A stretch of DNA of 64,000 nucleotides from Oscillospiraceae bacterium. GTDB taxonomy: Bacteria; Bacillota; Clostridia; Oscillospirales; UBA929. Where the stretch lies: NCBI GenBank assembly GCA_009777255.1, contig WRMG01000001.1:5751-69750 (forward strand). Direction: 5' to 3'. The position numbers and the translations under genes are program-made. The notes below the pieces were generated by a model, which worked only from the letters and a program-made list of their open reading frames with translations, had not been told where the DNA came from and searched no databases. Shown one piece after another: positions 56,763-64,000 of this stretch. Every line of letters begins with the position of its first letter. Position 1 is the stretch's first letter.

Positions 56763-56996
56763 AATTATCCTCTCCGTTTCGTTATATTTTCGGGCGCAAA
56801 AATACCGCGGTACAAACAGCCTTTTCTCAGACTGCCGCACGCGGTCGCGGTATTCACGAAAGGTTGCTTTACGCGGCGCACAAAGCATAAAGGGATCGGC
56901 TCCCTTTTTCACACCGTACGCGCCCTATATTCGGTTTAAGTCAGAACCACCACTGATAATACCGACACAAAAACAACTCCTTTCGTAATGTAATAT
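56763..56996 (-). promoter_or_regulatory. Long 5' leader with 10-codon mini-ORF and hairpins (candidate attenuator)
   Basis: Mini-ORF GTG 56968 to TAA 56936 (M-S-V-L-S-V-V-V-L-T), 8 nt after AAAGGAG. Hairpin aaaggga/tcccttt at 56889-56907. A 9-bp stem aauaccgcg/cgcgguauu at 56801-56854 is followed by a U-run. Confidence 0.4.
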
Positions 56997-57002
56997 GGGG
57001 GT

Positions 57003-57031
57003 ATTATAGCAGGATAAAAACGAAATGTCAA
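57003..57031 (-). promoter_or_regulatory. Consensus sigma-A promoter with extended -10 for the kinase-rsgA-RNHCP-GNAT operon
   Basis: On the minus strand: TTGACA (57031-57026), a 17-nt spacer, then TGcTATAAT (-10 at 57008-57003). Confidence 0.7.
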
Positions 57032-57065
57032 GGGGTAAAATTGCACGGCGATTTAGTTTTGTGTG

Positions 57066-57146
57066 TGTAGGGGTCGCACACCGGGCGACCCGTCGGGCGA
57101 CGGTGTAGCGCGGGTTTTGCGGGACGCCCAGTGTGCGTCCCCTACA
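57066..57146. repeat. REPIN-like inverted pair of REP-type hairpins with GTAG/CTAC tails
   Basis: Left unit tGTAG-gggtcgc-acaccgg-gcgaccc (57066-57091). Right unit gggacgc-ccagtgt-gcgtccc-CTACa (57121-57146). The two are reverse complements of each other apart from a few substitutions. Confidence 0.8.
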
Positions 57147-57222
57147 GGCGGTTTCACAATTAAATTACAGCAGGCATAATCTTCTCATTAAAAAGCCATG
57201 CTAAACGGCGGAGGGGTGTTCT

Positions 57223-59097
57223 GTGAAAAGATTTTGCATATTGTTTTTTATATTGATTATATTGTCGGGCTGCGCGGACAGGCATCCCGCCGGTCAGCGC
57301 GCGGGCACACTCCCCGTCCCCGCCGCAGAAAGTGACGCCGCGCCGGAGCAAAGCACGAGTGCAAAGGAAAGTACCTTTACACTCATGTGGTATGTCAACG
57401 GCTCGGATTTGGAGTCCGGCGGCGGCGAGGACTACGGCGGCGCGTTTTCACGCAATCTGCGGGAGGTGCTGTCATATCTGCCGGCGGACGACAGGGTTAC
57501 GGTCGTCATCTTCTCGGGCGGCACGTCAAAATGGGAGACGGCCGGTTTTGAGGCGGATATAAATCAGGTGCATTTCGTGACCGAGGACGGGCTGGCGCAC
57601 GGCGAGCGGCTGCCGGAGGGCAGCATTGCCGACCCTGATACGCTGGCCGGTTTTGTCGATTACGTGATGAAGGCGCGGCCCGCCGACCGCTATGGGCTGG
57701 TGTTCTGGGACCATGGGAGCAGCGTGCCCATCGGCTTCGGGCTGGACGAGCTGCGCGAGCCGAGGTCCATCAACGCCCGGGATATAGCGCGCGGGCTGGA
57801 GGCGGGGCTGGGCGGTGAAAAGCTGGCCTTTATCGGGTTTGACACTTGCCTGATGGCGACGGCGGAGACCGCCGCGCTGTGCGCGCCGCACGCCGGTTAT
57901 ATGATCGCATCGGAGGAGCTGGAGCCCAACGCGGGCTGGAATTACGCGCCGCTGATGCGGGCGCTGACGCGCGACCCGTCCGTTGATACCCTGAGGCTGT
58001 GCAGGATTGTCGCCGACGCTTATTACAGCGCGAGTCTCGAGCTTAACCCCGAGGAGCTTATCACTGTCTCCGTGACCGATCTTGCAAAGATAGATGCCGT
58101 AGTCAGCGCCACCGAGGCGTTCGCGCTGGCCGCCAAGAGCGACCTTGACGCGGGCGGGTTCGCCGGTATCTCGAAAAGGCGCGCAACCGTGAAGGATTTC
58201 GGCGGCGTGAACGAGAGCGCCGATATGGTTGATCTGGTACATCTCGCCCAGCGCTTCTCGCCGAAATATCCCAAGGAGTCGAAGGCGCTTATCGCCGCCG
58301 TTAAGAGCTGCGTGGCGTATAACCGCCGCTCGCGGACCTCGCCGAACTCCAACGGGCTGAGCGTATATTTCCCGTATGAGAACGAGCCGGTTATGGACGG
58401 GTATCTGGACGTCTATCTCGCCATGGGCTTTACGGAGGCTTATATCGGGCTTATCAGGAGCTTTTCAGCGGAGCTGAGGGCCGGCGACGCCGATACGAAG
58501 AGGACGGAGATACCGGTTGAAGCGGCGGCCGGCGGATATAAAATAAGCGTGCCCGACGGTATAACCTCGCTGCGGGCGGCGCTGCTGGGCAGGGAGTCCG
58601 GCGACGCGTATTATATTTTCAGCTATGTGCCCGGCGCGGCGCTTAACGGCAAAACGGGTTCGGCCGCGCTGCCGGAGAGCTGGCTGACGCTGAACGGCGT
58701 TTTGGTGTGCGCGTATACCGAGAGCGCGGACGAACGGCATGTGCTGTACTCCGTGCCCGTGCTGGTAAACGGCCGCGATATGAACCTGATGTACGCGCGC
58801 GATGGGGCGGCGCTCTATGAGATCGGCGCGACGCCCGACGGCGATGAGGACACGCCCGCGCTGCCCGGCTTTCTGCCGATAAATGCCGGCGACGCCGTTA
58901 CGCCGAAATATCCGCGGGTGAGCCTCAGCTCGGGGCGCGAGGAGGACGGGTATTACCTCGGGGAGACGGTTGGTGTGACGGACGGCGGGCTTGCGCCCGA
59001 ATTTTCCGCGCTGCCCGGGGGCGAATATTATTTCGCGTTTTGCCTGACCGATATTTACGACAACCATTTCTGGTCGGAGGTTATACAAATAACATAG
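57223..59097 (+). CDS. Clostripain-related (C11 family) cysteine peptidase lipoprotein
   Basis: Lipobox ILSGC, His in VFWDHGSS and Cys in GFDTCLMA. GTG start 6 nt after GGAGGGG. Confidence 0.85.
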   Translation: MKRFCILFFILIILSGCADRHPAGQRAGTLPVPAAESDAAPEQSTSAKESTFTLMWYVNGSDLESGGGEDYGGAFSRNLREVLSYLPADDRVTVVIFSGGTSKWETAGFEADINQVHFVTEDGLAHGERLPEGSIADPDTLAGFVDYVMKARPADRYGLVFWDHGSSVPIGFGLDELREPRSINARDIARGLEAGLGGEKLAFIGFDTCLMATAETAALCAPHAGYMIASEELEPNAGWNYAPLMRALTRDPSVDTLRLCRIVADAYYSASLELNPEELITVSVTDLAKIDAVVSATEAFALAAKSDLDAGGFAGISKRRATVKDFGGVNESADMVDLVHLAQRFSPKYPKESKALIAAVKSCVAYNRRSRTSPNSNGLSVYFPYENEPVMDGYLDVYLAMGFTEAYIGLIRSFSAELRAGDADTKRTEIPVEAAAGGYKISVPDGITSLRAALLGRESGDAYYIFSYVPGAALNGKTGSAALPESWLTLNGVLVCAYTESADERHVLYSVPVLVNGRDMNLMYARDGAALYEIGATPDGDEDTPALPGFLPINAGDAVTPKYPRVSLSSGREEDGYYLGETVGVTDGGLAPEFSALPGGEYYFAFCLTDIYDNHFWSEVIQIT

Positions 59098-59135
59098 GGG
59101 CGGCTATTGATCGCCCGCATGGGGAGATAGAATTT

Positions 59136-60569
59136 ATGGCGGCTGTTAACGAAACGCGCAAAATGCTCGAGCAAGCGTTTAACTATCCGGTCAACAAGGA
59201 TATTGTGTTCCGCGATTTTAAGTACGCGGGCAAAGACTGCTTTGTCCTCTATATCGACGGCATGGCAAGCGGCGATAAGATCAGCGATTTTATTCTGCGC
59301 CCGCTCACCCGCTCGCCCGGCGGCGGCAGCGTGATGAACGTATTACAGGTGTGCGGCGTAAAGGCCGAGACGGAGCTTGAAAAGGCTGTCGCCGCCGTGT
59401 TGCAGGGCGACGCCGCCGTCTGCGCGGACGACGCGGTGTATATCTGCGAGACAAAGGGGTTTGACAAGCGCGGGGTTGAGAAGCCGACGGTGGAGAACTC
59501 GATTGTTGGCTCTCAGGAGGCCTTTAACGAGTCGCTGCGCACGAATACCACGCTGCTGCACCGCATCATCAAAAACGCGGCGCTGACCACGGAGACGCTC
59601 ACGCTGGGCAGGCTCAACAACCTCGTCTGCGGCGTTATATACGTAAACGGCATAGCGGACATGGGGCTGGTCGCGGAGGTAAAGCGGCGCCTCGGCGGCG
59701 TCGAGACGGATTTTTTGCAGAGCGGCGGCATGGTCGAGCAGTTTATTGAGGATCAGGCGTCGTCGCTGTTCCAGACCGTGACGACGACCGAGCGCCCCGA
59801 CAACGCCGCCGCGCTGCTGATGCAGGGCCGGGTCGGCATTATCGTTGACGGCAGCCCGCGCGTGATAGTCGCGCCGGTCACGCTGTTCACGCTCCTGAAA
59901 ACCAGCGAGGAGAGCGCTATGCGCGCGCCGCTGGCGTCCTCGATCAGGGCAGTGCGTATTCTGGCCGTGTTCGCGGCGCTGCTGATGCCGGCGCTGTATC
60001 TGGCGGCGACGACGTTCCACGCGGAGATGATACCCGCCGCGCTGCTGCTCAATCTCGCCGGGGCGCGGCTGAATATCCCGTATCCCGCGATGGTGGAGCT
60101 GCTGCTGATGGAGATCTCCTTCGAGCTGATACGCGAGGCCGGACAGCGTATCCCCGGGCCGATCGGCGGCACCGTCGGGATCGTCGGCGGGCTTATTCTG
60201 GGCGAGGCGGCGGTGTCCGCCGGGCTGGTCAGCCAGGGCTGCGTGGTGATAATCGCGTTTTCGGGGCTGGGCAGCTTTGCCATACCGCAGTATCAGCTGA
60301 CGTTCACCGTCAGGCTTTTGCGGCTGATTTTCCTGATATGCGCCGGGCTGATGGGGTTTTTGGGCGTGGGCGCCGCGTTTGTCATTCTGGTCGGGTATGT
60401 AAACTCCCTGACCTCGTTCGGCACGGATTACGTCAGCCCCGTGTTCTCGGACGCGCCGGTTTTCCCAAAGCGTCCCGTCTGGGAGTATGAGATGCGGCCG
60501 CCGGAGCTGAACGCCGCGCGGCCCGAGTATCAGCCGGGAATATCGCGCAAATGGAGAGAGGGCCGATGA
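59136..60569 (+). CDS. Spore germination protein, GerA-family A subunit
   Basis: DIVFRDF...GMA...ESLRTNTTLLHRII pattern and a C-terminal TM bundle. ATG 59136 lies after GGGGAG. Confidence 0.9.
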   Translation: MAAVNETRKMLEQAFNYPVNKDIVFRDFKYAGKDCFVLYIDGMASGDKISDFILRPLTRSPGGGSVMNVLQVCGVKAETELEKAVAAVLQGDAAVCADDAVYICETKGFDKRGVEKPTVENSIVGSQEAFNESLRTNTTLLHRIIKNAALTTETLTLGRLNNLVCGVIYVNGIADMGLVAEVKRRLGGVETDFLQSGGMVEQFIEDQASSLFQTVTTTERPDNAAALLMQGRVGIIVDGSPRVIVAPVTLFTLLKTSEESAMRAPLASSIRAVRILAVFAALLMPALYLAATTFHAEMIPAALLLNLAGARLNIPYPAMVELLLMEISFELIREAGQRIPGPIGGTVGIVGGLILGEAAVSAGLVSQGCVVIIAFSGLGSFAIPQYQLTFTVRLLRLIFLICAGLMGFLGVGAAFVILVGYVNSLTSFGTDYVSPVFSDAPVFPKRPVWEYEMRPPELNAARPEYQPGISRKWREGR

Positions 60570-61597
60570 AGACGCTTAGGATTTACGACGGCGCAGCCGC
60601 CGCGTGCCTTTTGATCCTGCCGCCGCTGCTTTACGCGGGGCTAGGCGATCTGACCGCCGCTTACGGGACCGCGGCGTGGCTTGTGCTGCTCGTCGCGGCG
60701 GCCGCGGCGCTGTGCCTGTTTCTGATAACGGCGTTTCTTACACGGGGGAATATAAAGCTCCTTGACGCGGCGGCGGCCGTGTGCGGCAGGCCGTTCGCCG
60801 TACTGTACGGGTTTGTTCTGTGCGTATATTTTTCTTACCACACCGGCGTGTACGCGCGGGAGAGCGCCGCCGTGTTAAAGGCATACGGCTTTAATAAGAC
60901 GCCCTTTTATGTCATCGCGGGGATTATTTTGCTGGCCGCGCTTGTCATGAACCTGTTCGGCGGGCGGGCCGTTATAAAGAGCGCGGGGTTTTTCTTTATC
61001 GCGCTGCTGGCCGGTATCGCGCTGGTCATTCTGCTGGGCCTTAACAGATACGAGCCGGCCTATCTCTTCCCCGTGTCCCTGAACGGGATAGACCCTCTTG
61101 AGGGGTTATATAAGGCGTCGTTTTTCAGCGGCGCGGTGCTATTGGCGCTGTTCAGCTTCGGCGATGGCCGCGCGCTCAGGCGCTCGGGGGTTATCTCTGT
61201 CCTGACGGCGGGCGGGGTTTCGGCGCTGCTGTGCGTGTGCTATGTCATGATGTTCTCGCGCGGCGCCGGCGCGGCGATGACCTGCGGCTTTATCGAGATG
61301 GGACAGTCGAGCTACTTCAACCACTTCTTCTACCGCTTTGAGGCGCCGCTGCTGCTCTTTGTCATTTTCGCCGCCGTTATGCAGGCGTCGCTCGGGCTGC
61401 TGATCGCCAAGGAGAGCCTTGTAAGCGTCTTTAAGCGCTGTTCACACAGAGGCGTCGTCTGCGCGGCGGCGGCTGCTGCGTCGGCAGCGGCGCTGGTTCT
61501 GCCGGACGCGCCCGTTAAGAGATACGGGGTTTTTATCGTCGCGGCGCCGCCGGTTTTTCTGTTTATAATAAGCTGTGTAAAGAGGATTTTCAAATGA
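60566..61597 (+). CDS. Spore germination protein, GerAB-type permease (B subunit)
   Basis: About 10 TM helices, positioned between the A and C subunits. ATG 60566 lies after GGAGAGAGGG and overlaps the A-subunit gene. Confidence 0.8.
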   Translation: MKTLRIYDGAAAACLLILPPLLYAGLGDLTAAYGTAAWLVLLVAAAAALCLFLITAFLTRGNIKLLDAAAAVCGRPFAVLYGFVLCVYFSYHTGVYARESAAVLKAYGFNKTPFYVIAGIILLAALVMNLFGGRAVIKSAGFFFIALLAGIALVILLGLNRYEPAYLFPVSLNGIDPLEGLYKASFFSGAVLLALFSFGDGRALRRSGVISVLTAGGVSALLCVCYVMMFSRGAGAAMTCGFIEMGQSSYFNHFFYRFEAPLLLFVIFAAVMQASLGLLIAKESLVSVFKRCSHRGVVCAAAAAASAAALVLPDAPVKRYGVFIVAAPPVFLFIISCVKRIFK

Positions 61598-62649
61598 GGT
61601 TTTTTAAGTTTTTGGGCGTTATAATCTGTATCGCCGCGCTCTGCTCGGGGTGCTGGGACAAGCGCGAGCTGGAGGATAACGTGTTCGCGGTGCTGCTGGG
61701 GCTGGATATATCCGAGGATAAAGGCGTGACGGTCACGGTCGCCTATCCGCAGACCCAGCCGGGCGGTCAGGACGGAGAGCAGGCGGATTACGCCGTCATG
61801 TCCGCAAAGGCAAACTCCTTTACAGACGGGCTGGAGATGCTGAGGGCGGAGCTGGCCGGGCCGCTGGCGCTCCACTCGGTGAAGACTGTCGTAATATCGC
61901 AGGAGTTTGCCGTGAGGGGCGGGATAAGCCGCGCGCTCTCCGAGCTGCGCCGCGCCCAGGTGAAGAACACCGCGAATATAATGGTCTCCGCCGGCGCGGC
62001 GAGCGATTTTATCAGCGCCCGCGTGAAGGAGCCTGACGTTCTCAGGCGGGAGGAGCTGCTGCTTGAGCGGGCGAACGGCGGCGTGTTTTACAGGCCGCTG
62101 ATGCTGCTGGACCTTATGATAAATATAATGTCCGCGGACAGCGCCGCGATGTACGCGGTATCGGAGAGTGAGGACGGCGCGGATGATGAGGGGGACGGGA
62201 AAGCCGCTGAAGCGTCCGCCATGGCTGAAAGCTCCGGCAAAAAGGGGGAGCCCGATATGCCCGTGAAGTCGGACGGCAAGACCCGAATATGCGGGCTGGC
62301 GGTGTTCAGGGGGGACAAAATGGTCGGCACGCTTAATTCCTCAGAGGCGCGGATTTTTATCATGCTGACCGGAAGCAAGGCTAAAATTAAGAGCCGGATT
62401 GAGGACGGCAGGCCCGTATTCGATATTACTCTGCTGAGCGACGCCGAAAACGCACCGTCTCTCAGCGATACGCGGGATTTTATTGAGAAAATCCAAGGGG
62501 AATACGGCGCGGATATACTGAAGCTCGGCAACAGGCTGCGCGTCAGGAACCAGAAGGTTAACTGGCGGGAGAAATATGGGGAGGCGGAGATCAATGTATC
62601 CATAAAAATAATCGCGGTTCCACATCACAAATCGCCGCAAACCACATAA
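61594..62649 (+). CDS. Ger(x)C family germination lipoprotein (C subunit)
   Basis: Lipobox LCSGCWDKRELEDN is the typical GerAC start. 4-nt overlap with the B-subunit gene. Confidence 0.88.
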   Translation: MRFFKFLGVIICIAALCSGCWDKRELEDNVFAVLLGLDISEDKGVTVTVAYPQTQPGGQDGEQADYAVMSAKANSFTDGLEMLRAELAGPLALHSVKTVVISQEFAVRGGISRALSELRRAQVKNTANIMVSAGAASDFISARVKEPDVLRREELLLERANGGVFYRPLMLLDLMINIMSADSAAMYAVSESEDGADDEGDGKAAEASAMAESSGKKGEPDMPVKSDGKTRICGLAVFRGDKMVGTLNSSEARIFIMLTGSKAKIKSRIEDGRPVFDITLLSDAENAPSLSDTRDFIEKIQGEYGADILKLGNRLRVRNQKVNWREKYGEAEINVSIKIIAVPHHKSPQTT

Positions 62650-62683
62650 ACTGTACTATAATTTTTATAGTAAGGAGAGCGTT

Positions 62684-63202
62684 ATGGATATTTACAACGG
62701 TTCACAGGCAGCGGATCCGCGCGATATGGCCTCGCGGATCGAGGAGTCCTATCCCGAGTCATACAGGAGGATATACCCGCATGTAAGGCAGCTTGTAAGC
62801 GCGATGAACGACGACGACGGCATGACAGGCGACGGCATGGAGAGGATGGCTGACGAGGCGGTCGCCAGAAGCGGCATGTTAAGCGATCCGGCGCCGGTAC
62901 ATAGCAGAGGGGCGCTGGGCGACATCGCCAGAATTTTGATCGCGCGGGAGCTGTTTGACAGGCGCAGGGGCCGCGGCGGGTTCTTGCCGTTCGCGCCGTT
63001 TATGTTCATGCCGATTGACTACAGGGGCGGCTTCAGGGGCGGTTATCACGGCGGGTTCGGCGGGTTCAGGGACGGGTTCCGTGACGGAGGTTTCGATGGG
63101 TTCAGGGACGGCTTATGGGACGGCGGCTTCGACGGGTTCCGCGACGGCTACCGTGACAGGGACGGGTTCCGCGACCGTGACGGCTACCGTTACTGGTATT
63201 AG
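62684..63202 (+). CDS. Hypothetical protein with G/F/R/D-rich repetitive C-terminus (possible spore coat component)
   Basis: RBS aaggagag. The N-terminal YPESYRRIYPHV...GDIARILIARELFDRRRGRG pattern recalls small Clostridial proteins. The tail has GFRDG/GFDGFRDG repeats. It lies directly upstream of cotJA. Confidence 0.5.
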   Translation: MDIYNGSQAADPRDMASRIEESYPESYRRIYPHVRQLVSAMNDDDGMTGDGMERMADEAVARSGMLSDPAPVHSRGALGDIARILIARELFDRRRGRGGFLPFAPFMFMPIDYRGGFRGGYHGGFGGFRDGFRDGGFDGFRDGLWDGGFDGFRDGYRDRDGFRDRDGYRYWY

Positions 63203-63213
63203 GGGGTGTCATT

Positions 63214-63390
63214 TTGATCAGCGCTGAAACGGCACGCGGCCCCGACAGGCCGTCGCTTGCGATGGCATATGTTATGCCGCAGCGGCAAATAACGCAGGTG
63301 TATAAAACCGACGCCGCGCTAAAGCGGGGCACGCTGTTCCCCGATCTGGACAAACCGTTTTCGGGCAAAGGAGGGCGTTTGAATGGATAG
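63214..63390 (+). CDS. cotJA: Spore coat associated protein CotJA (not in ORF track, 58 aa)
   Basis: TTG start 7 nt after AGGGGG. LAMAYVMPQ...ALKRGTLFPDLDKPF matches the CotJA signature. It overlaps the cotJB start by 8 nt. Confidence 0.75.
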   Translation: MISAETARGPDRPSLAMAYVMPQRQITQVYKTDAALKRGTLFPDLDKPFSGKGGRLNG

Positions 63391-63634
63391 GAGCCGGCTT
63401 GGCCGCCAGATGACCGCCGAGCAGTTCGCAATGTTCGACACGCAGCTGTATCTGGACACGCATCCCAATGATATGGTCGCTATGAACATGTTTAACAGCT
63501 ATAAAAAAGCTCATGACGAGTATAAAAAGCAGTTCGAGGCGCAGTTCGGCCCGCTGATGGCCGAGGGCGGCGCGCCGGGAGAGTCGTGGGCGTGGGTCAG
63601 GGACCCGTGGCCGTGGGAAAGGGAGGCGAACTGA
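63383..63634 (+). CDS. cotJB: Spore coat protein CotJB
   Basis: FAMFDTQLYLDTHPND...Y...FGPL...WAWV.DPWPWE signature. Confidence 0.88.
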   Translation: MDRSRLGRQMTAEQFAMFDTQLYLDTHPNDMVAMNMFNSYKKAHDEYKKQFEAQFGPLMAEGGAPGESWAWVRDPWPWEREAN

Positions 63635-63874
63635 ATGTTTCATTATGAGAAGAAGCTGCAATACCCCGTTAAAATAAAGACCCCCAATCCCAGGATGGCA
63701 AAGATAATCATAACGCAGTACGGGGGGCCGGACGGCGAGCTGGGCGCCAGCCTGAGATACCTGAGCCAGAGATACACTATGCCGCACGGGGAGTTAAAGG
63801 GATTGCTGACCGATATAGGTACAGAGGAATCAAAATGGCGGTTTTTTATCGCCGGAGGGTATACGGCGCGATGA
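63635..63874 (+). pseudogene. cotJC: cotJC (Mn-catalase-family spore coat protein) truncated after about codon 65
   Basis: YEKKLQYPVKIK...QYGGPDGELGASLRYLSQRY...LTDIGTEE matches the CotJC N-terminus. After 63829 the frame reads SKWRFFIAGGYTAR-stop instead of the expected LAHLE metal-binding helix. Confidence 0.8.
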
Positions 63875-63997
63875 GGACATCGCGCCCTACGGACGCGGGG
63901 GGGGTTATGCGCGGGACGCCCGGGTGTGCGTCCCCTACGTAGGGCACGGAACGCCGGTTGGGGTAACGACGGGCGACCGGGGACGGTCGCCCCTACA
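63865..63997. repeat. Three same-orientation REP-type hairpins each followed by CCTAC
   Basis: ggcgcgatg-agga-catcgcgcc-CTAC (63865-63890). gggacgc-ccgggtgt-gcgtccc-CTAC (63913-63938). gggcgacc-ggggac-ggtcgccc-CTACA (63971-63997). They belong to the same family as 57066-57146. Confidence 0.75.
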
Positions 63998-64000
63998 AGG

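What the first reader, a model, noticed from the sequence alone, without database searches (positions are those of the whole stretch)
63821..64000. cotJC is cut off after the TDIGTEE motif and replaced by a cluster of REP-type hairpins
cotJA, cotJB and the first ~65 codons of cotJC are intact and overlapping or abutting, as in a normal cotJ operon. Immediately after codon E65 (63829), the conserved LAHLE metal-binding helix of this Mn-catalase-family protein should follow. Instead the sequence changes to unrelated DNA, reaches a stop at 63872-63874, and carries three REP-like hairpins up to the window edge. There are two possibilities. The 3' two-thirds of cotJC may have been deleted or replaced by repeat-mediated rearrangement. 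Or an element is inserted here and the rest of cotJC lies further right, in the manner of skin-like sporulation intervening elements. The window ends too early to tell.
Basis: partly seen in the sequence, partly recalled or inferred. Interest (0 to 1): 0.6.

Follow-up and report, generated by a model that had tools for sequence, protein, structure and literature searches.

The report
Mobile element junction inside cotJC gene
The spore-coat gene cotJC is broken here by the left edge of an inserted mobile element of the kind that a serine recombinase can cut out again, a known habit of spore-forming bacteria; the hairpin repeats beside it are passengers, not the cause of the break.

Summary
cotJA, cotJB and about 62-65 codons of cotJC are intact, CotJC homology then stops, a stop codon follows at 63872-63874, and three GC-rich hairpins ending in CTAC fill the last 140 bases.

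The break is not random, and the repeats did not cause it. It lies at a recombination hotspot in cotJC. More than 100 distinct CotJC N-terminal fragments in public data end at the same Gly-Thr-Glu codons. Where relatives can be read further, a large serine recombinase (LSR) element follows, with the intact 3' part of cotJC at its far end (4.2, about 9 and about 38.5 kb examples).

The window carries the recognition arm of this LSR family (TCAAAATGGC, 10 nt from a central GG) in exact register. The true crossover is therefore probably GG 63818-63819, and codons 63-65 come from the element. A second strain from an independent assembly has the identical junction, and its four differences in the cotJC fragment are all synonymous.

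The hairpins are a genome-specific REP-like family. A second cluster lies at 57067-57145. They sit inside the element, starting 46 nt past the crossover.

The recombinase and the cotJC 3' part of this genome lie beyond the window and could not be retrieved. This is a known kind of element (skin-like); interruption of cotJC is mentioned only briefly in the literature.

The parts
63214..63390 (+). cotJA
   Evidence: Pfam CotJA, E = 2e-15. Overlaps cotJB by 8 nt.
63383..63634 (+). cotJB
   Evidence: Pfam CotJB, E = 1e-26.
63635..63819 (+). Host-derived 5' part of cotJC: codons 1-61 plus the GG of Gly62. This is the B arm of attL.
   Evidence: Pfam Mn_catalase profile positions 1-66 of 284. 69% identity to B. 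subtilis CotJC residues 1-64. Four substitutions against strain L001, all synonymous.
63818..63819 (+). Inferred crossover dinucleotide GG
   Evidence: In the complete elements L103 and L010/L098, attL and attR share only GGT and GGTACTGAGG respectively. GG is the centre of the inverted-repeat attP reconstructed from them. The window aligns in register. This is an inference by homology.
63820..63843 (+). Element-derived att arm (P-type half-site), TACAGAGGAATCAAAATGGCGGTT. It happens to encode T-E-E-S-K-W.
   Evidence: The motif TCAAAATGGC sits 10 nt from GG, as in L103 (TACGGAAACGTCAAAATGGC) and L010 (TACTGAGGTATCAAAATGGC). AAAATGGCGG is the reverse complement of the recombinase-coding arm of L101 (CCGCCATTTT)..
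63635..63874 (+). The chimaeric 79-aa ORF as it reads today: CotJC residues 1-62, then element-encoded residues, then a stop.
   Evidence: The same protein is encoded on ENA contig L001.
63865..63890 (+). REP-like unit 1: stem GGCGCGATG/CATCGCGCC, loop AGGA, then CTAC
63913..63938 (+). REP-like unit 2: stem GGGACGC/GCGTCCC, then CTAC
   Evidence: 28 nt are 93% identical to 57119-57145.
63939..63957 (-). Possible degenerate inverted REP unit, beginning GTAGGGCACGG
   Evidence: Inverted repeat I1/I4. Weak.
63971..63996 (+). REP-like unit 3: stem GGGCGACCG/CGGTCGCCC, loop GGGA, then CTAC
57067..57145 (.). Second cluster of the same REP-like family: an inverted doublet in an intergenic region
   Evidence: Folds with z = -6.45.

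Best explanation
Window 63818-63843 is the left junction (attL) of a mobile element that a large serine recombinase (LSR) integrated into cotJC. The crossover is at the GG of the Gly62 codon. That codon lies just upstream of the E-E-L-G-H metal-binding motif, a stretch conserved enough at the DNA level to serve as attB for several recombinase families.

Everything from 63820 to the window edge is element DNA: first the 24-nt recombinase-binding arm, then a terminal non-coding stretch. The genome's own REP-like hairpins have colonised that stretch.

By analogy with skin (sigK), SPbeta (spsM), vfbin, vrin and gin, I infer the following. The 3' two-thirds of cotJC lies at the other end of the element, a few kb to tens of kb to the right. 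The element's recombinase, with a small partner protein, excises it in the terminally differentiating mother cell and rebuilds an intact cotJC. The spore's chromosome keeps the element.

Shown: the break, its position, the att arm, the same junction in a second strain, and complete elements with both cotJC halves in relatives.

Inferred: that this genome still has the recombinase and the 3' half, and that excision is tied to sporulation.
For: 1. At least 117 distinct (90%-identity cluster) CotJC N-terminal fragments of 65-131 aa end at TDIG(T)E, several on contigs of 100-270 kb. 152 IMG/VR contigs also carry CotJC fragments that break here.

2. The closest relatives, in the same 90% cluster as the window's ORF, have a convergent 527-aa LSR directly after the junction (L094, L096). 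LSR domain content (Resolvase, Recombinase, Zn_ribbon_recom) and similarity to the SPbeta SprA and A118 integrase structures are shown.

3. Complete elements exist with both cotJC halves intact and co-oriented:
- L103, 4.17 kb;
- ERZ27247098 k141_269153, about 38.5 kb;
- L068, about 9 kb.

4. attP reconstructed from these is an inverted repeat centred on GG. The window has the arm motif TCAAAATGGC at the identical 10-nt spacing.

5. Many C-terminal CotJC fragments begin '...GTEELGHLEM' after a short foreign leader, so the 3' halves are kept widely.

6. An independent assembly of a 99.25%-identical strain has the same junction. Its four substitutions in the cotJC fragment are all synonymous.

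7. Literature. cotJC is cited as a frequent integration site for phages and transposons (Abe et al. 2013, as cited in bioRxiv 10.1101/2021.11.22.469490). A skin-like element is reported in cotJC of Laceyella sacchari (bioRxiv 10.1101/2022.02.25.481979). Developmental excision of such elements is shown for spsM and gerE (PMC4191935, PMC5595907).
Against: No recombinase gene and no cotJC 3' half of this genome could be seen or retrieved: the window ends 181 nt after the inferred crossover.

In the closest relatives (L094, L096, L005) the recombinase's 3' coding sequence starts immediately behind the arm. In the window that position is occupied by REP hairpins, and none of the three minus-strand frames shows recombinase sequence. 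The recombinase is therefore either displaced, at the other end of the element, or damaged.

Decayed examples exist. The L005 recombinase lacks its catalytic domain.

Sporulation-specific excision has not been demonstrated for any cotJC element in the papers I could search. B. subtilis cotJ mutants are reported to have no obvious defect (PMC12122855), so simple tolerated inactivation is possible.
Confidence: 0.6

Rival explanations
1. A mobile element is integrated here by a serine recombinase, but there is no developmental role. cotJC is merely a dispensable 'safe harbour' that stays inactivated. The element leaves only when it transfers or is induced.
For: Many of the elements in cotJC are called viral by IMG/VR. 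Others carry cargo unrelated to sporulation, such as polysaccharide synthesis genes or an amidohydrolase. cotJ mutants of B. subtilis are reported without obvious defects (PMC12122855). C. difficile carries redundant CotJC paralogues (PMC11222575).
Against: Both gene halves stay intact and conserved in many lineages. The window's fragment shows 4 synonymous and 0 non-synonymous changes between strains. Some genomes carry two or three elements in one cotJC and still have all pieces open.
Confidence: 0.2
2. It is a decayed remnant. An element did integrate, but later deletion or REP invasion destroyed the recombinase, or removed the rest of the element together with the cotJC 3' half. cotJC is then a permanent pseudogene in this lineage.
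For: REP hairpins sit where the closest relatives have recombinase coding sequence. L005 shows that such recombinases do decay. Both available assemblies stop within or just after the hairpin cluster.
Against: The 24-nt att arm is intact and in register. The cotJC fragment shows only synonymous change between strains, and cotJA and cotJB are intact. In L103 the recombinase ORF stops before the arm, and in the 38.5-kb element the recombinase is at the far end. Hairpins behind the arm therefore need not hit coding sequence.
Confidence: 0.13
3. REP-mediated deletion or rearrangement, unrelated to any element, removed the 3' two-thirds of cotJC.
For: REP-like hairpins are close to the break, and a second cluster exists 6.7 kb away.
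Against: The break coincides to the nucleotide with a recombinase crossover used in many genera that have no such hairpins. It is followed by that recombinase family's arm motif. The hairpins start 46 nt further on.
Confidence: 0.03
4. The break is an assembly chimera, or a self-splicing intron or intein, rather than a DNA insertion.
For: Metagenome contigs do break near here.
Against: Two independent assemblies of different strains give the identical junction. There is no Rfam match in 63300-64000 at E <= 1. There is an in-frame stop 15 codons after the break. Relatives show recombinase elements of 4-38 kb, not introns.
Confidence: 0.02

Closest known systems
skin element in sigK (B. subtilis, C. 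difficile), excised by the large serine recombinase SpoIVCA
   Same: It interrupts the coding sequence of a mother-cell sporulation gene. In relatives, an LSR is encoded at the very edge of the element, cargo varies between lineages, and both gene halves are kept in the same orientation.
   Different: The target gene is cotJC (a spore-coat Mn-catalase-family protein), not a sigma factor, so no regulatory checkpoint is obvious. Excision during sporulation is not shown. The recombinase of this genome is unseen.
SPbeta prophage in spsM (SprA with the directionality factor SprB), and vfbin (spoVFB), vrin (spoVR), gin (gerE), yin (yabG)
   Same: The same logic: an LSR-bounded element inside a late sporulation gene. 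The relatives' LSRs match the SprA (YokA) structures 9dxh/9dxd by sequence. A small conserved ORF sits next to the recombinase, as gin has little besides its recombination genes (PMC5595907).
   Different: The att sites and recombinase lineage differ. In several cotJC elements the recombinase ORF runs across the att site, into antisense cotJC or in frame into the cotJC 3' half. I did not find this described for those systems.
cotJC-interrupting elements noted by Abe et al. 2013 (as cited in bioRxiv 10.1101/2021.11.22.469490) and by Galperin et al. 2022 for Laceyella sacchari (bioRxiv 10.1101/2022.02.25.481979)
   Same: The same target gene and the same class of element.
   Different: Those are brief mentions in Bacilli. 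Here the host is a 58% G+C clostridial-type spore former, and the same site is seen to be used very widely in Clostridia metagenome data.
REP / REPIN elements (short palindromes with a GTAG/CTAC foot, mobilised by RAYT transposases)
   Same: GC-rich 7-9 bp stems, short loops, an invariant CTAC at the foot, clustered copies including an inverted doublet, and non-coding locations.
   Different: Only five units in two clusters are visible. No RAYT gene was found in the window. REPs are best known from Proteobacteria (my own knowledge).

Membership tests
Sporulation-gene intervening element excised by a large serine recombinase (skin / SPbeta / gin type) | Interrupts the coding sequence of a sporulation gene expressed in the mother cell | tested here: met
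   cotJC homology stops at codon 62-65 of about 190-198. That the cotJ operon is mother-cell (sigma-E) expressed is established knowledge for B. subtilis, not tested here.
Sporulation-gene intervening element excised by a large serine recombinase (skin / SPbeta / gin type) | A junction with the recombinase's att architecture: a central dinucleotide flanked by a recognisable half-site | tested here: met
   GG 63818-19, then TACAGAGGAA, then TCAAAATGGC, in register with the attL of L103 and L010 and with the reverse complement of the P arm of L101.
Sporulation-gene intervening element excised by a large serine recombinase (skin / SPbeta / gin type) | The element encodes a large serine recombinase at one edge | not testable with these tools
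   The window ends 181 nt after the crossover, and no recombinase sequence is in those bases. The genome is absent from all searchable collections. The feature is met in relatives L094, L096, L006-8, L103, L097-L102 and L068.
Sporulation-gene intervening element excised by a large serine recombinase (skin / SPbeta / gin type) | The second half of the gene is retained, co-oriented, at the other end | not testable with these tools
   No CotJC C-terminal match in the window. The feature is met in relatives L103, L010/L098 and L068, and implied by many C-terminal fragments.
Sporulation-gene intervening element excised by a large serine recombinase (skin / SPbeta / gin type) | Precise excision during sporulation that rebuilds the gene | not testable with these tools
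   Needs PCR or sequencing of sporulating cells. Indirect support: only synonymous change in the fragment between strains.
CotJC / manganese catalase family (PF05067) | A full four-helix-bundle domain with the two E-x-x-H metal-binding motifs | tested here: not met
   Only profile positions 1-66 of 284 are present, and the first EELGH motif is missing. The ORF is a fragment, not a functional member on its own.
REP elements | An imperfect palindrome with a conserved GTAG/CTAC tetranucleotide at its foot, in several non-coding copies | tested here: met
   Five units, all with CTAC, and none elsewhere in 64 kb under the same scan. Inverted doublet with z = -6.45.
REP elements | A cognate RAYT (Y1 transposase) gene in the genome | tested here: inconclusive
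   tblastn with an IS200-type Y1 fragment found nothing in the window. The rest of the genome is unavailable.
Self-splicing intron or intein | A ribozyme fold, or an in-frame protein-splicing domain | tested here: not met
   No Rfam match at E <= 1. A stop codon lies 15 codons after the break.

The most novel reading that the evidence does not exclude
In this element family the att site lies inside, or directly behind, the 3' end of the recombinase gene. The recombinase therefore has a different C-terminal tail in the integrated state than in the excised state. When integrated, the ORF reads into antisense cotJC, or in frame into the CotJC C-terminal half, giving 643-695-aa recombinase-CotJC fusion ORFs. 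This state-dependent tail could act as a built-in directionality or timing switch. In addition, cotJC is a multi-site hotspot that in some genomes must be reassembled from three or more pieces by independent recombinases.
Probability: 0.1. Interest if true: 0.7.

Novelty: new member of a known kind. Interest (0 to 1): 0.4.

Why it matters
The finding turns an apparent pseudogene into a probable programmed DNA rearrangement. It also warns annotators that 'truncated' cotJC genes in Clostridia are often split genes.

The comparative data collected here go well beyond the one-line mentions in the literature:
- cotJC is one of the most heavily used integration sites for serine-recombinase elements and prophages in gut and environmental Clostridia.
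- At least two hotspots lie within 35 codons of each other.
- The att sites are mapped precisely and could be tested, or reused as recombinase/att pairs.

For this window itself only one junction is visible, so the gain is modest.

Tried and rejected
1. Extending the window failed.
- The genome is not in genome contigs.
- The junction is not in JGI metagenomes.
- The junction and a degenerate attP pattern are not in IMG/VR.
- Ten large window proteins are not in the protein collection.
- The only contig with the same junction (L001) ends at window position 63954.

2. I looked for the same species' recombinase or cotJC 3' half through recombinase homologues and fusion proteins. The look-ups came from other samples.

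3. I tried to predict which end of the element carries the recombinase from the 'SKW' tail of the chimaeric ORF. This was rejected: L103 (SKW tail) has the recombinase next to attL, while L009/L010 (also SKW) has it at attR.

4. A sigma-E/K-like promoter upstream of the small ORF and recombinase: L094 and L096 share ATA-N17-CATAAAyT, but it lies upstream of a terminator-like hairpin and is absent in the others. Not used.

5. Intron reading: no Rfam match.

6. RAYT search in the window: nothing.

7. The figure '117 of 120 best hits are truncated' should not be read as a frequency. Short targets get slightly higher scores, and in the C-terminal search most members of a related clade are full-length 198-aa proteins.

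8. I first took the 577-aa ORF after the L003 junction for a recombinase. Pfam shows it is a chemotaxis receptor.

Full report
**What is in the window**

cotJA (63214-63390) and cotJB (63383-63634) are intact and match their Pfam families. The next ORF (63635-63874, 79 aa) matches the manganese-catalase/CotJC family only over profile positions 1-66 of 284. It matches B. subtilis CotJC (sequence from memory) over residues 1-64 at 69% identity. No C-terminal match exists anywhere else in the 64 kb.

After the Thr-Asp-Ile-Gly-Thr-Glu-Glu codons the reading frame runs into unrelated sequence and stops at 63872-63874. The last 140 bases hold three perfect GC-rich hairpins, each followed by CTAC: 63865-86, 63913-34 and 63971-92.

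**The hairpins**

A scan of the whole window for perfect GC-rich hairpins followed by CTAC returns only five units. They are the three in the tail and an inverted doublet at 57071-57141, which lies in an intergenic region. One unit of the doublet is 93% identical over 28 nt to the second tail unit. The doublet folds far better than shuffles (z = -6.45).

This is a small genome-specific REP-like family: a palindrome with a CTAC/GTAG foot, found in clusters and in non-coding DNA. The heptamer CCCCTAC alone is not enriched. No Y1-transposase gene was detected in the window.

**The junction is real**

ENA contig k141_2168166 (L001) covers window 56850-63954 at 99.25% identity, with 53 substitutions, so it is a different strain. 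It has exactly the same junction and tail. In the cotJC fragment the two strains differ at four positions, all synonymous. The tail has no differences.

**The break is at a recombination hotspot**

A homologue search with the 79-aa ORF returned 120 best hits. Of these, 117 are short proteins (65-131 aa) that lose CotJC homology right after TDIG(T)E. The other three are intact genes cut by contig ends. Short targets score slightly better, so this is a count of cases, not a frequency. Several of the truncated hits sit on contigs of 100-270 kb, so they are not contig-end artefacts.

A scan of IMG/VR found 152 viral contigs with CotJC fragments. Many end at residue 65. Many begin at residue 25-30. 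Some contain only residues about 25-65.

**What follows the break in relatives**

- The two proteins in the same 90% cluster as the window's ORF lie on contigs L094 and L096. There the fragment is followed at once by a convergent 527-aa large serine recombinase (LSR) and a small upstream ORF.
- The same holds for L006-L008, with a 565-aa recombinase.
- It also holds for L103, with a 517-aa recombinase.
- These proteins have the Resolvase, Recombinase and zinc-ribbon domains. By sequence they match the solved SPbeta SprA and A118 integrase structures.

**Complete elements**

- L103 is a 4.17-kb element. Its order is cotJC 5' part, recombinase, 68-aa ORF, amidohydrolase, 147-aa ORF, then a complete cotJC 3' part (...GVEELGHLEMV...NPSFDL) in the same orientation.
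- On ENA contig k141_269153 the two cotJC parts are about 38.5 kb apart. They enclose polysaccharide-synthesis genes. The recombinase is at the far end, and its ORF runs in frame into the cotJC 3' part, giving a 683-aa ORF.
- L068 has an element of about 9 kb with its recombinase next to the 3' part.
- A search with a CotJC C-terminal query found many 145-156-aa proteins that start with a short foreign leader and then 'GTEELGHLEM...'. The 3' halves are therefore kept widely.

**The att sites and where the window fits**

- In L103, attL and attR share only GGT. In the 38.5-kb element they share GGTACTGAGG.
- In both, the reconstructed attP is an inverted repeat centred on the GG of the Gly62 codon. 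In L103 the arms are GGGTGCCATTT...N13-GG-N13...AAATGGCACCC.
- The window reads ...ACCGATATA-GG-TACAGAGGAA-TCAAAATGGC-GGTT. The motif TCAAAATGGC therefore sits at the same 10-nt distance from GG as in L103 and L010.
- AAAATGGCGG is the reverse complement of the recombinase-coding arm in L101.
- The crossover in the window is therefore most likely GG 63818-63819. Bases 63820-63843 are the element's half-site, and the 'T-E-E' after Gly62 is element sequence that mimics the host codons.
- This also explains why relatives read TDIGSEV, TDIGREV or TDIGTEA at this point.
- The first REP hairpin starts at 63865, 46 nt past the crossover and behind the complete arm.

**Interpretation**

The first option, loss by repeat-mediated rearrangement, is not. 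The hairpins are secondary occupants of the element's terminal non-coding DNA.

What cannot be decided is the state of the element in this genome.
- In the closest relatives the recombinase's 3' coding sequence begins directly behind the arm, and in L094, L096 and L006 it even reads across it into antisense cotJC.
- In the window that place is taken by hairpins, and no recombinase sequence is visible in any minus-strand frame.
- The recombinase may lie further right, since in L103 its stop codon precedes the arm. It may be at the other end, as in the 38.5-kb element. Or it may be damaged, as in L005, whose recombinase lacks the catalytic domain.
- The purely synonymous divergence of the cotJC fragment argues that the gene is still under selection.

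**Mechanism proposed**

This follows the characterised systems skin/SpoIVCA, SPbeta/SprA-SprB and gin (PMC4191935, PMC5499854, PMC5595907, PMC5025042). In the mother cell the recombinase, helped by a directionality factor, recombines attL with attR. This removes the element as a circle and restores cotJC. The forespore genome keeps the element.

A conserved small ORF lies immediately upstream of the recombinase in every element examined. It is 56-82 aa, carries the motif NFQTAxLLSLL..LLTxWQxExC, and matches no Pfam or NCBIfam family. It is my candidate for the directionality factor. This is inference only.

A plain 'safe-harbour' integration without any developmental role is the main rival.

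**Comparison with what is known**

- cotJC as an integration site is mentioned in the literature. Abe et al. [quoted passage not shown]
- Galperin and colleagues note a skin-like element in cotJC of Laceyella sacchari (bioRxiv 10.1101/2022.02.25.481979).
- I found no experimental study of a cotJC element.
- The window is therefore a new member of a known kind. The breadth of the phenomenon in Clostridia and the details of the att site appear not to be described.

**Limits**

All attempts to extend the window failed. The organism is unidentified. It has 57.7% G+C, and the related CotJC proteins that carry names come from Oscillospiraceae.

Noticed in passing
window 57067-57145: An inverted doublet of the same REP-like hairpin family (REPIN-like) lies in the intergenic region between divergent genes. 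It folds with z = -6.45.
   Followed up: partly
window 62684-63202: A 172-aa ORF lies directly upstream of cotJA. Its C-terminal half is a Gly/Phe/Arg/Asp-rich repeat (GFRDG...). It has no Pfam match and is identical in the second strain. It may be a spore-coat protein.
   Followed up: no
window 63643-64000, minus strand: One minus-strand frame is open from the window edge through the hairpin cluster and the whole antisense of the cotJC fragment. In relatives, gene callers extend recombinase ORFs the same way (704-aa products P0322, P0351, P0352). This is probably an effect of G+C content.
   Followed up: partly
L002 10261-10359; L003 10261-10353 and 17117-17272; L012 10254-10346; many IMG/VR loci (L040-L093): cotJC has a second integration hotspot at the Q-Y-G-G-P codons (residue about 31). 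In L003 a 6.8-kb element with its own LSR sits there, flanked by the direct repeat CAATACGGTGGACC. The gene is broken again at residue 65, so one cotJC carries two elements.
   Followed up: partly
L068 10001-10111, 19170-19400: This cotJC is in at least three pieces, with elements at both hotspots and an LSR in each. Homology also ends at about residue 137, just before the contig end, which may indicate a third interruption.
   Followed up: partly
P0283, P0264, P0302, P0294 and others; L097-L102: 13 of the 120 best recombinase homologues are 643-695-aa ORFs in which the LSR reads in frame across attR into the CotJC C-terminal half (...KHFESSQ|GTEELAHLEM...). One is annotated in Intestinibacillus massiliensis. 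In elements of the opposite orientation the LSR ORF ends in antisense cotJC (...NRHFDTSLPISVSNPF*). The central dinucleotide is GG in one orientation and CC in the other, relative to the recombinase gene.
   Followed up: partly
L094 4825-4995, L096 5670-5852, L006 11929-12132, L103 11762-11968, L097 9565-9780, L101 908-1156: A conserved small ORF (56-82 aa, motif NFQTAxLLSLL..LLTxWQxExC) always lies immediately upstream of the recombinase. It matches no Pfam or NCBIfam family. It is a candidate directionality factor.
   Followed up: partly
ENA ERZ27247098 k141_269153 (L010 + L098): A 38.5-kb cotJC-intervening element whose cargo is a polysaccharide-biosynthesis cluster (glycosyltransferases, epimerases, EpsG) plus IS fragments, rather than phage genes.
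   Followed up: partly
L024-L033, L059, L060, L078, L018 (junctions listed): Other element families break cotJC 10-12 nt further on, after the His69 codon (…CAT|TGAGGTTATC…). Others use different arms. Several unrelated att types therefore target the same 20-bp stretch that encodes the EELGH metal-binding motif.
   Followed up: partly
L005 8455-10005: In this relative (91% CotJC identity) the recombinase next to the junction lacks the N-terminal catalytic domain and abuts a fragment of a second recombinase. It is an example of a decayed element.
   Followed up: no
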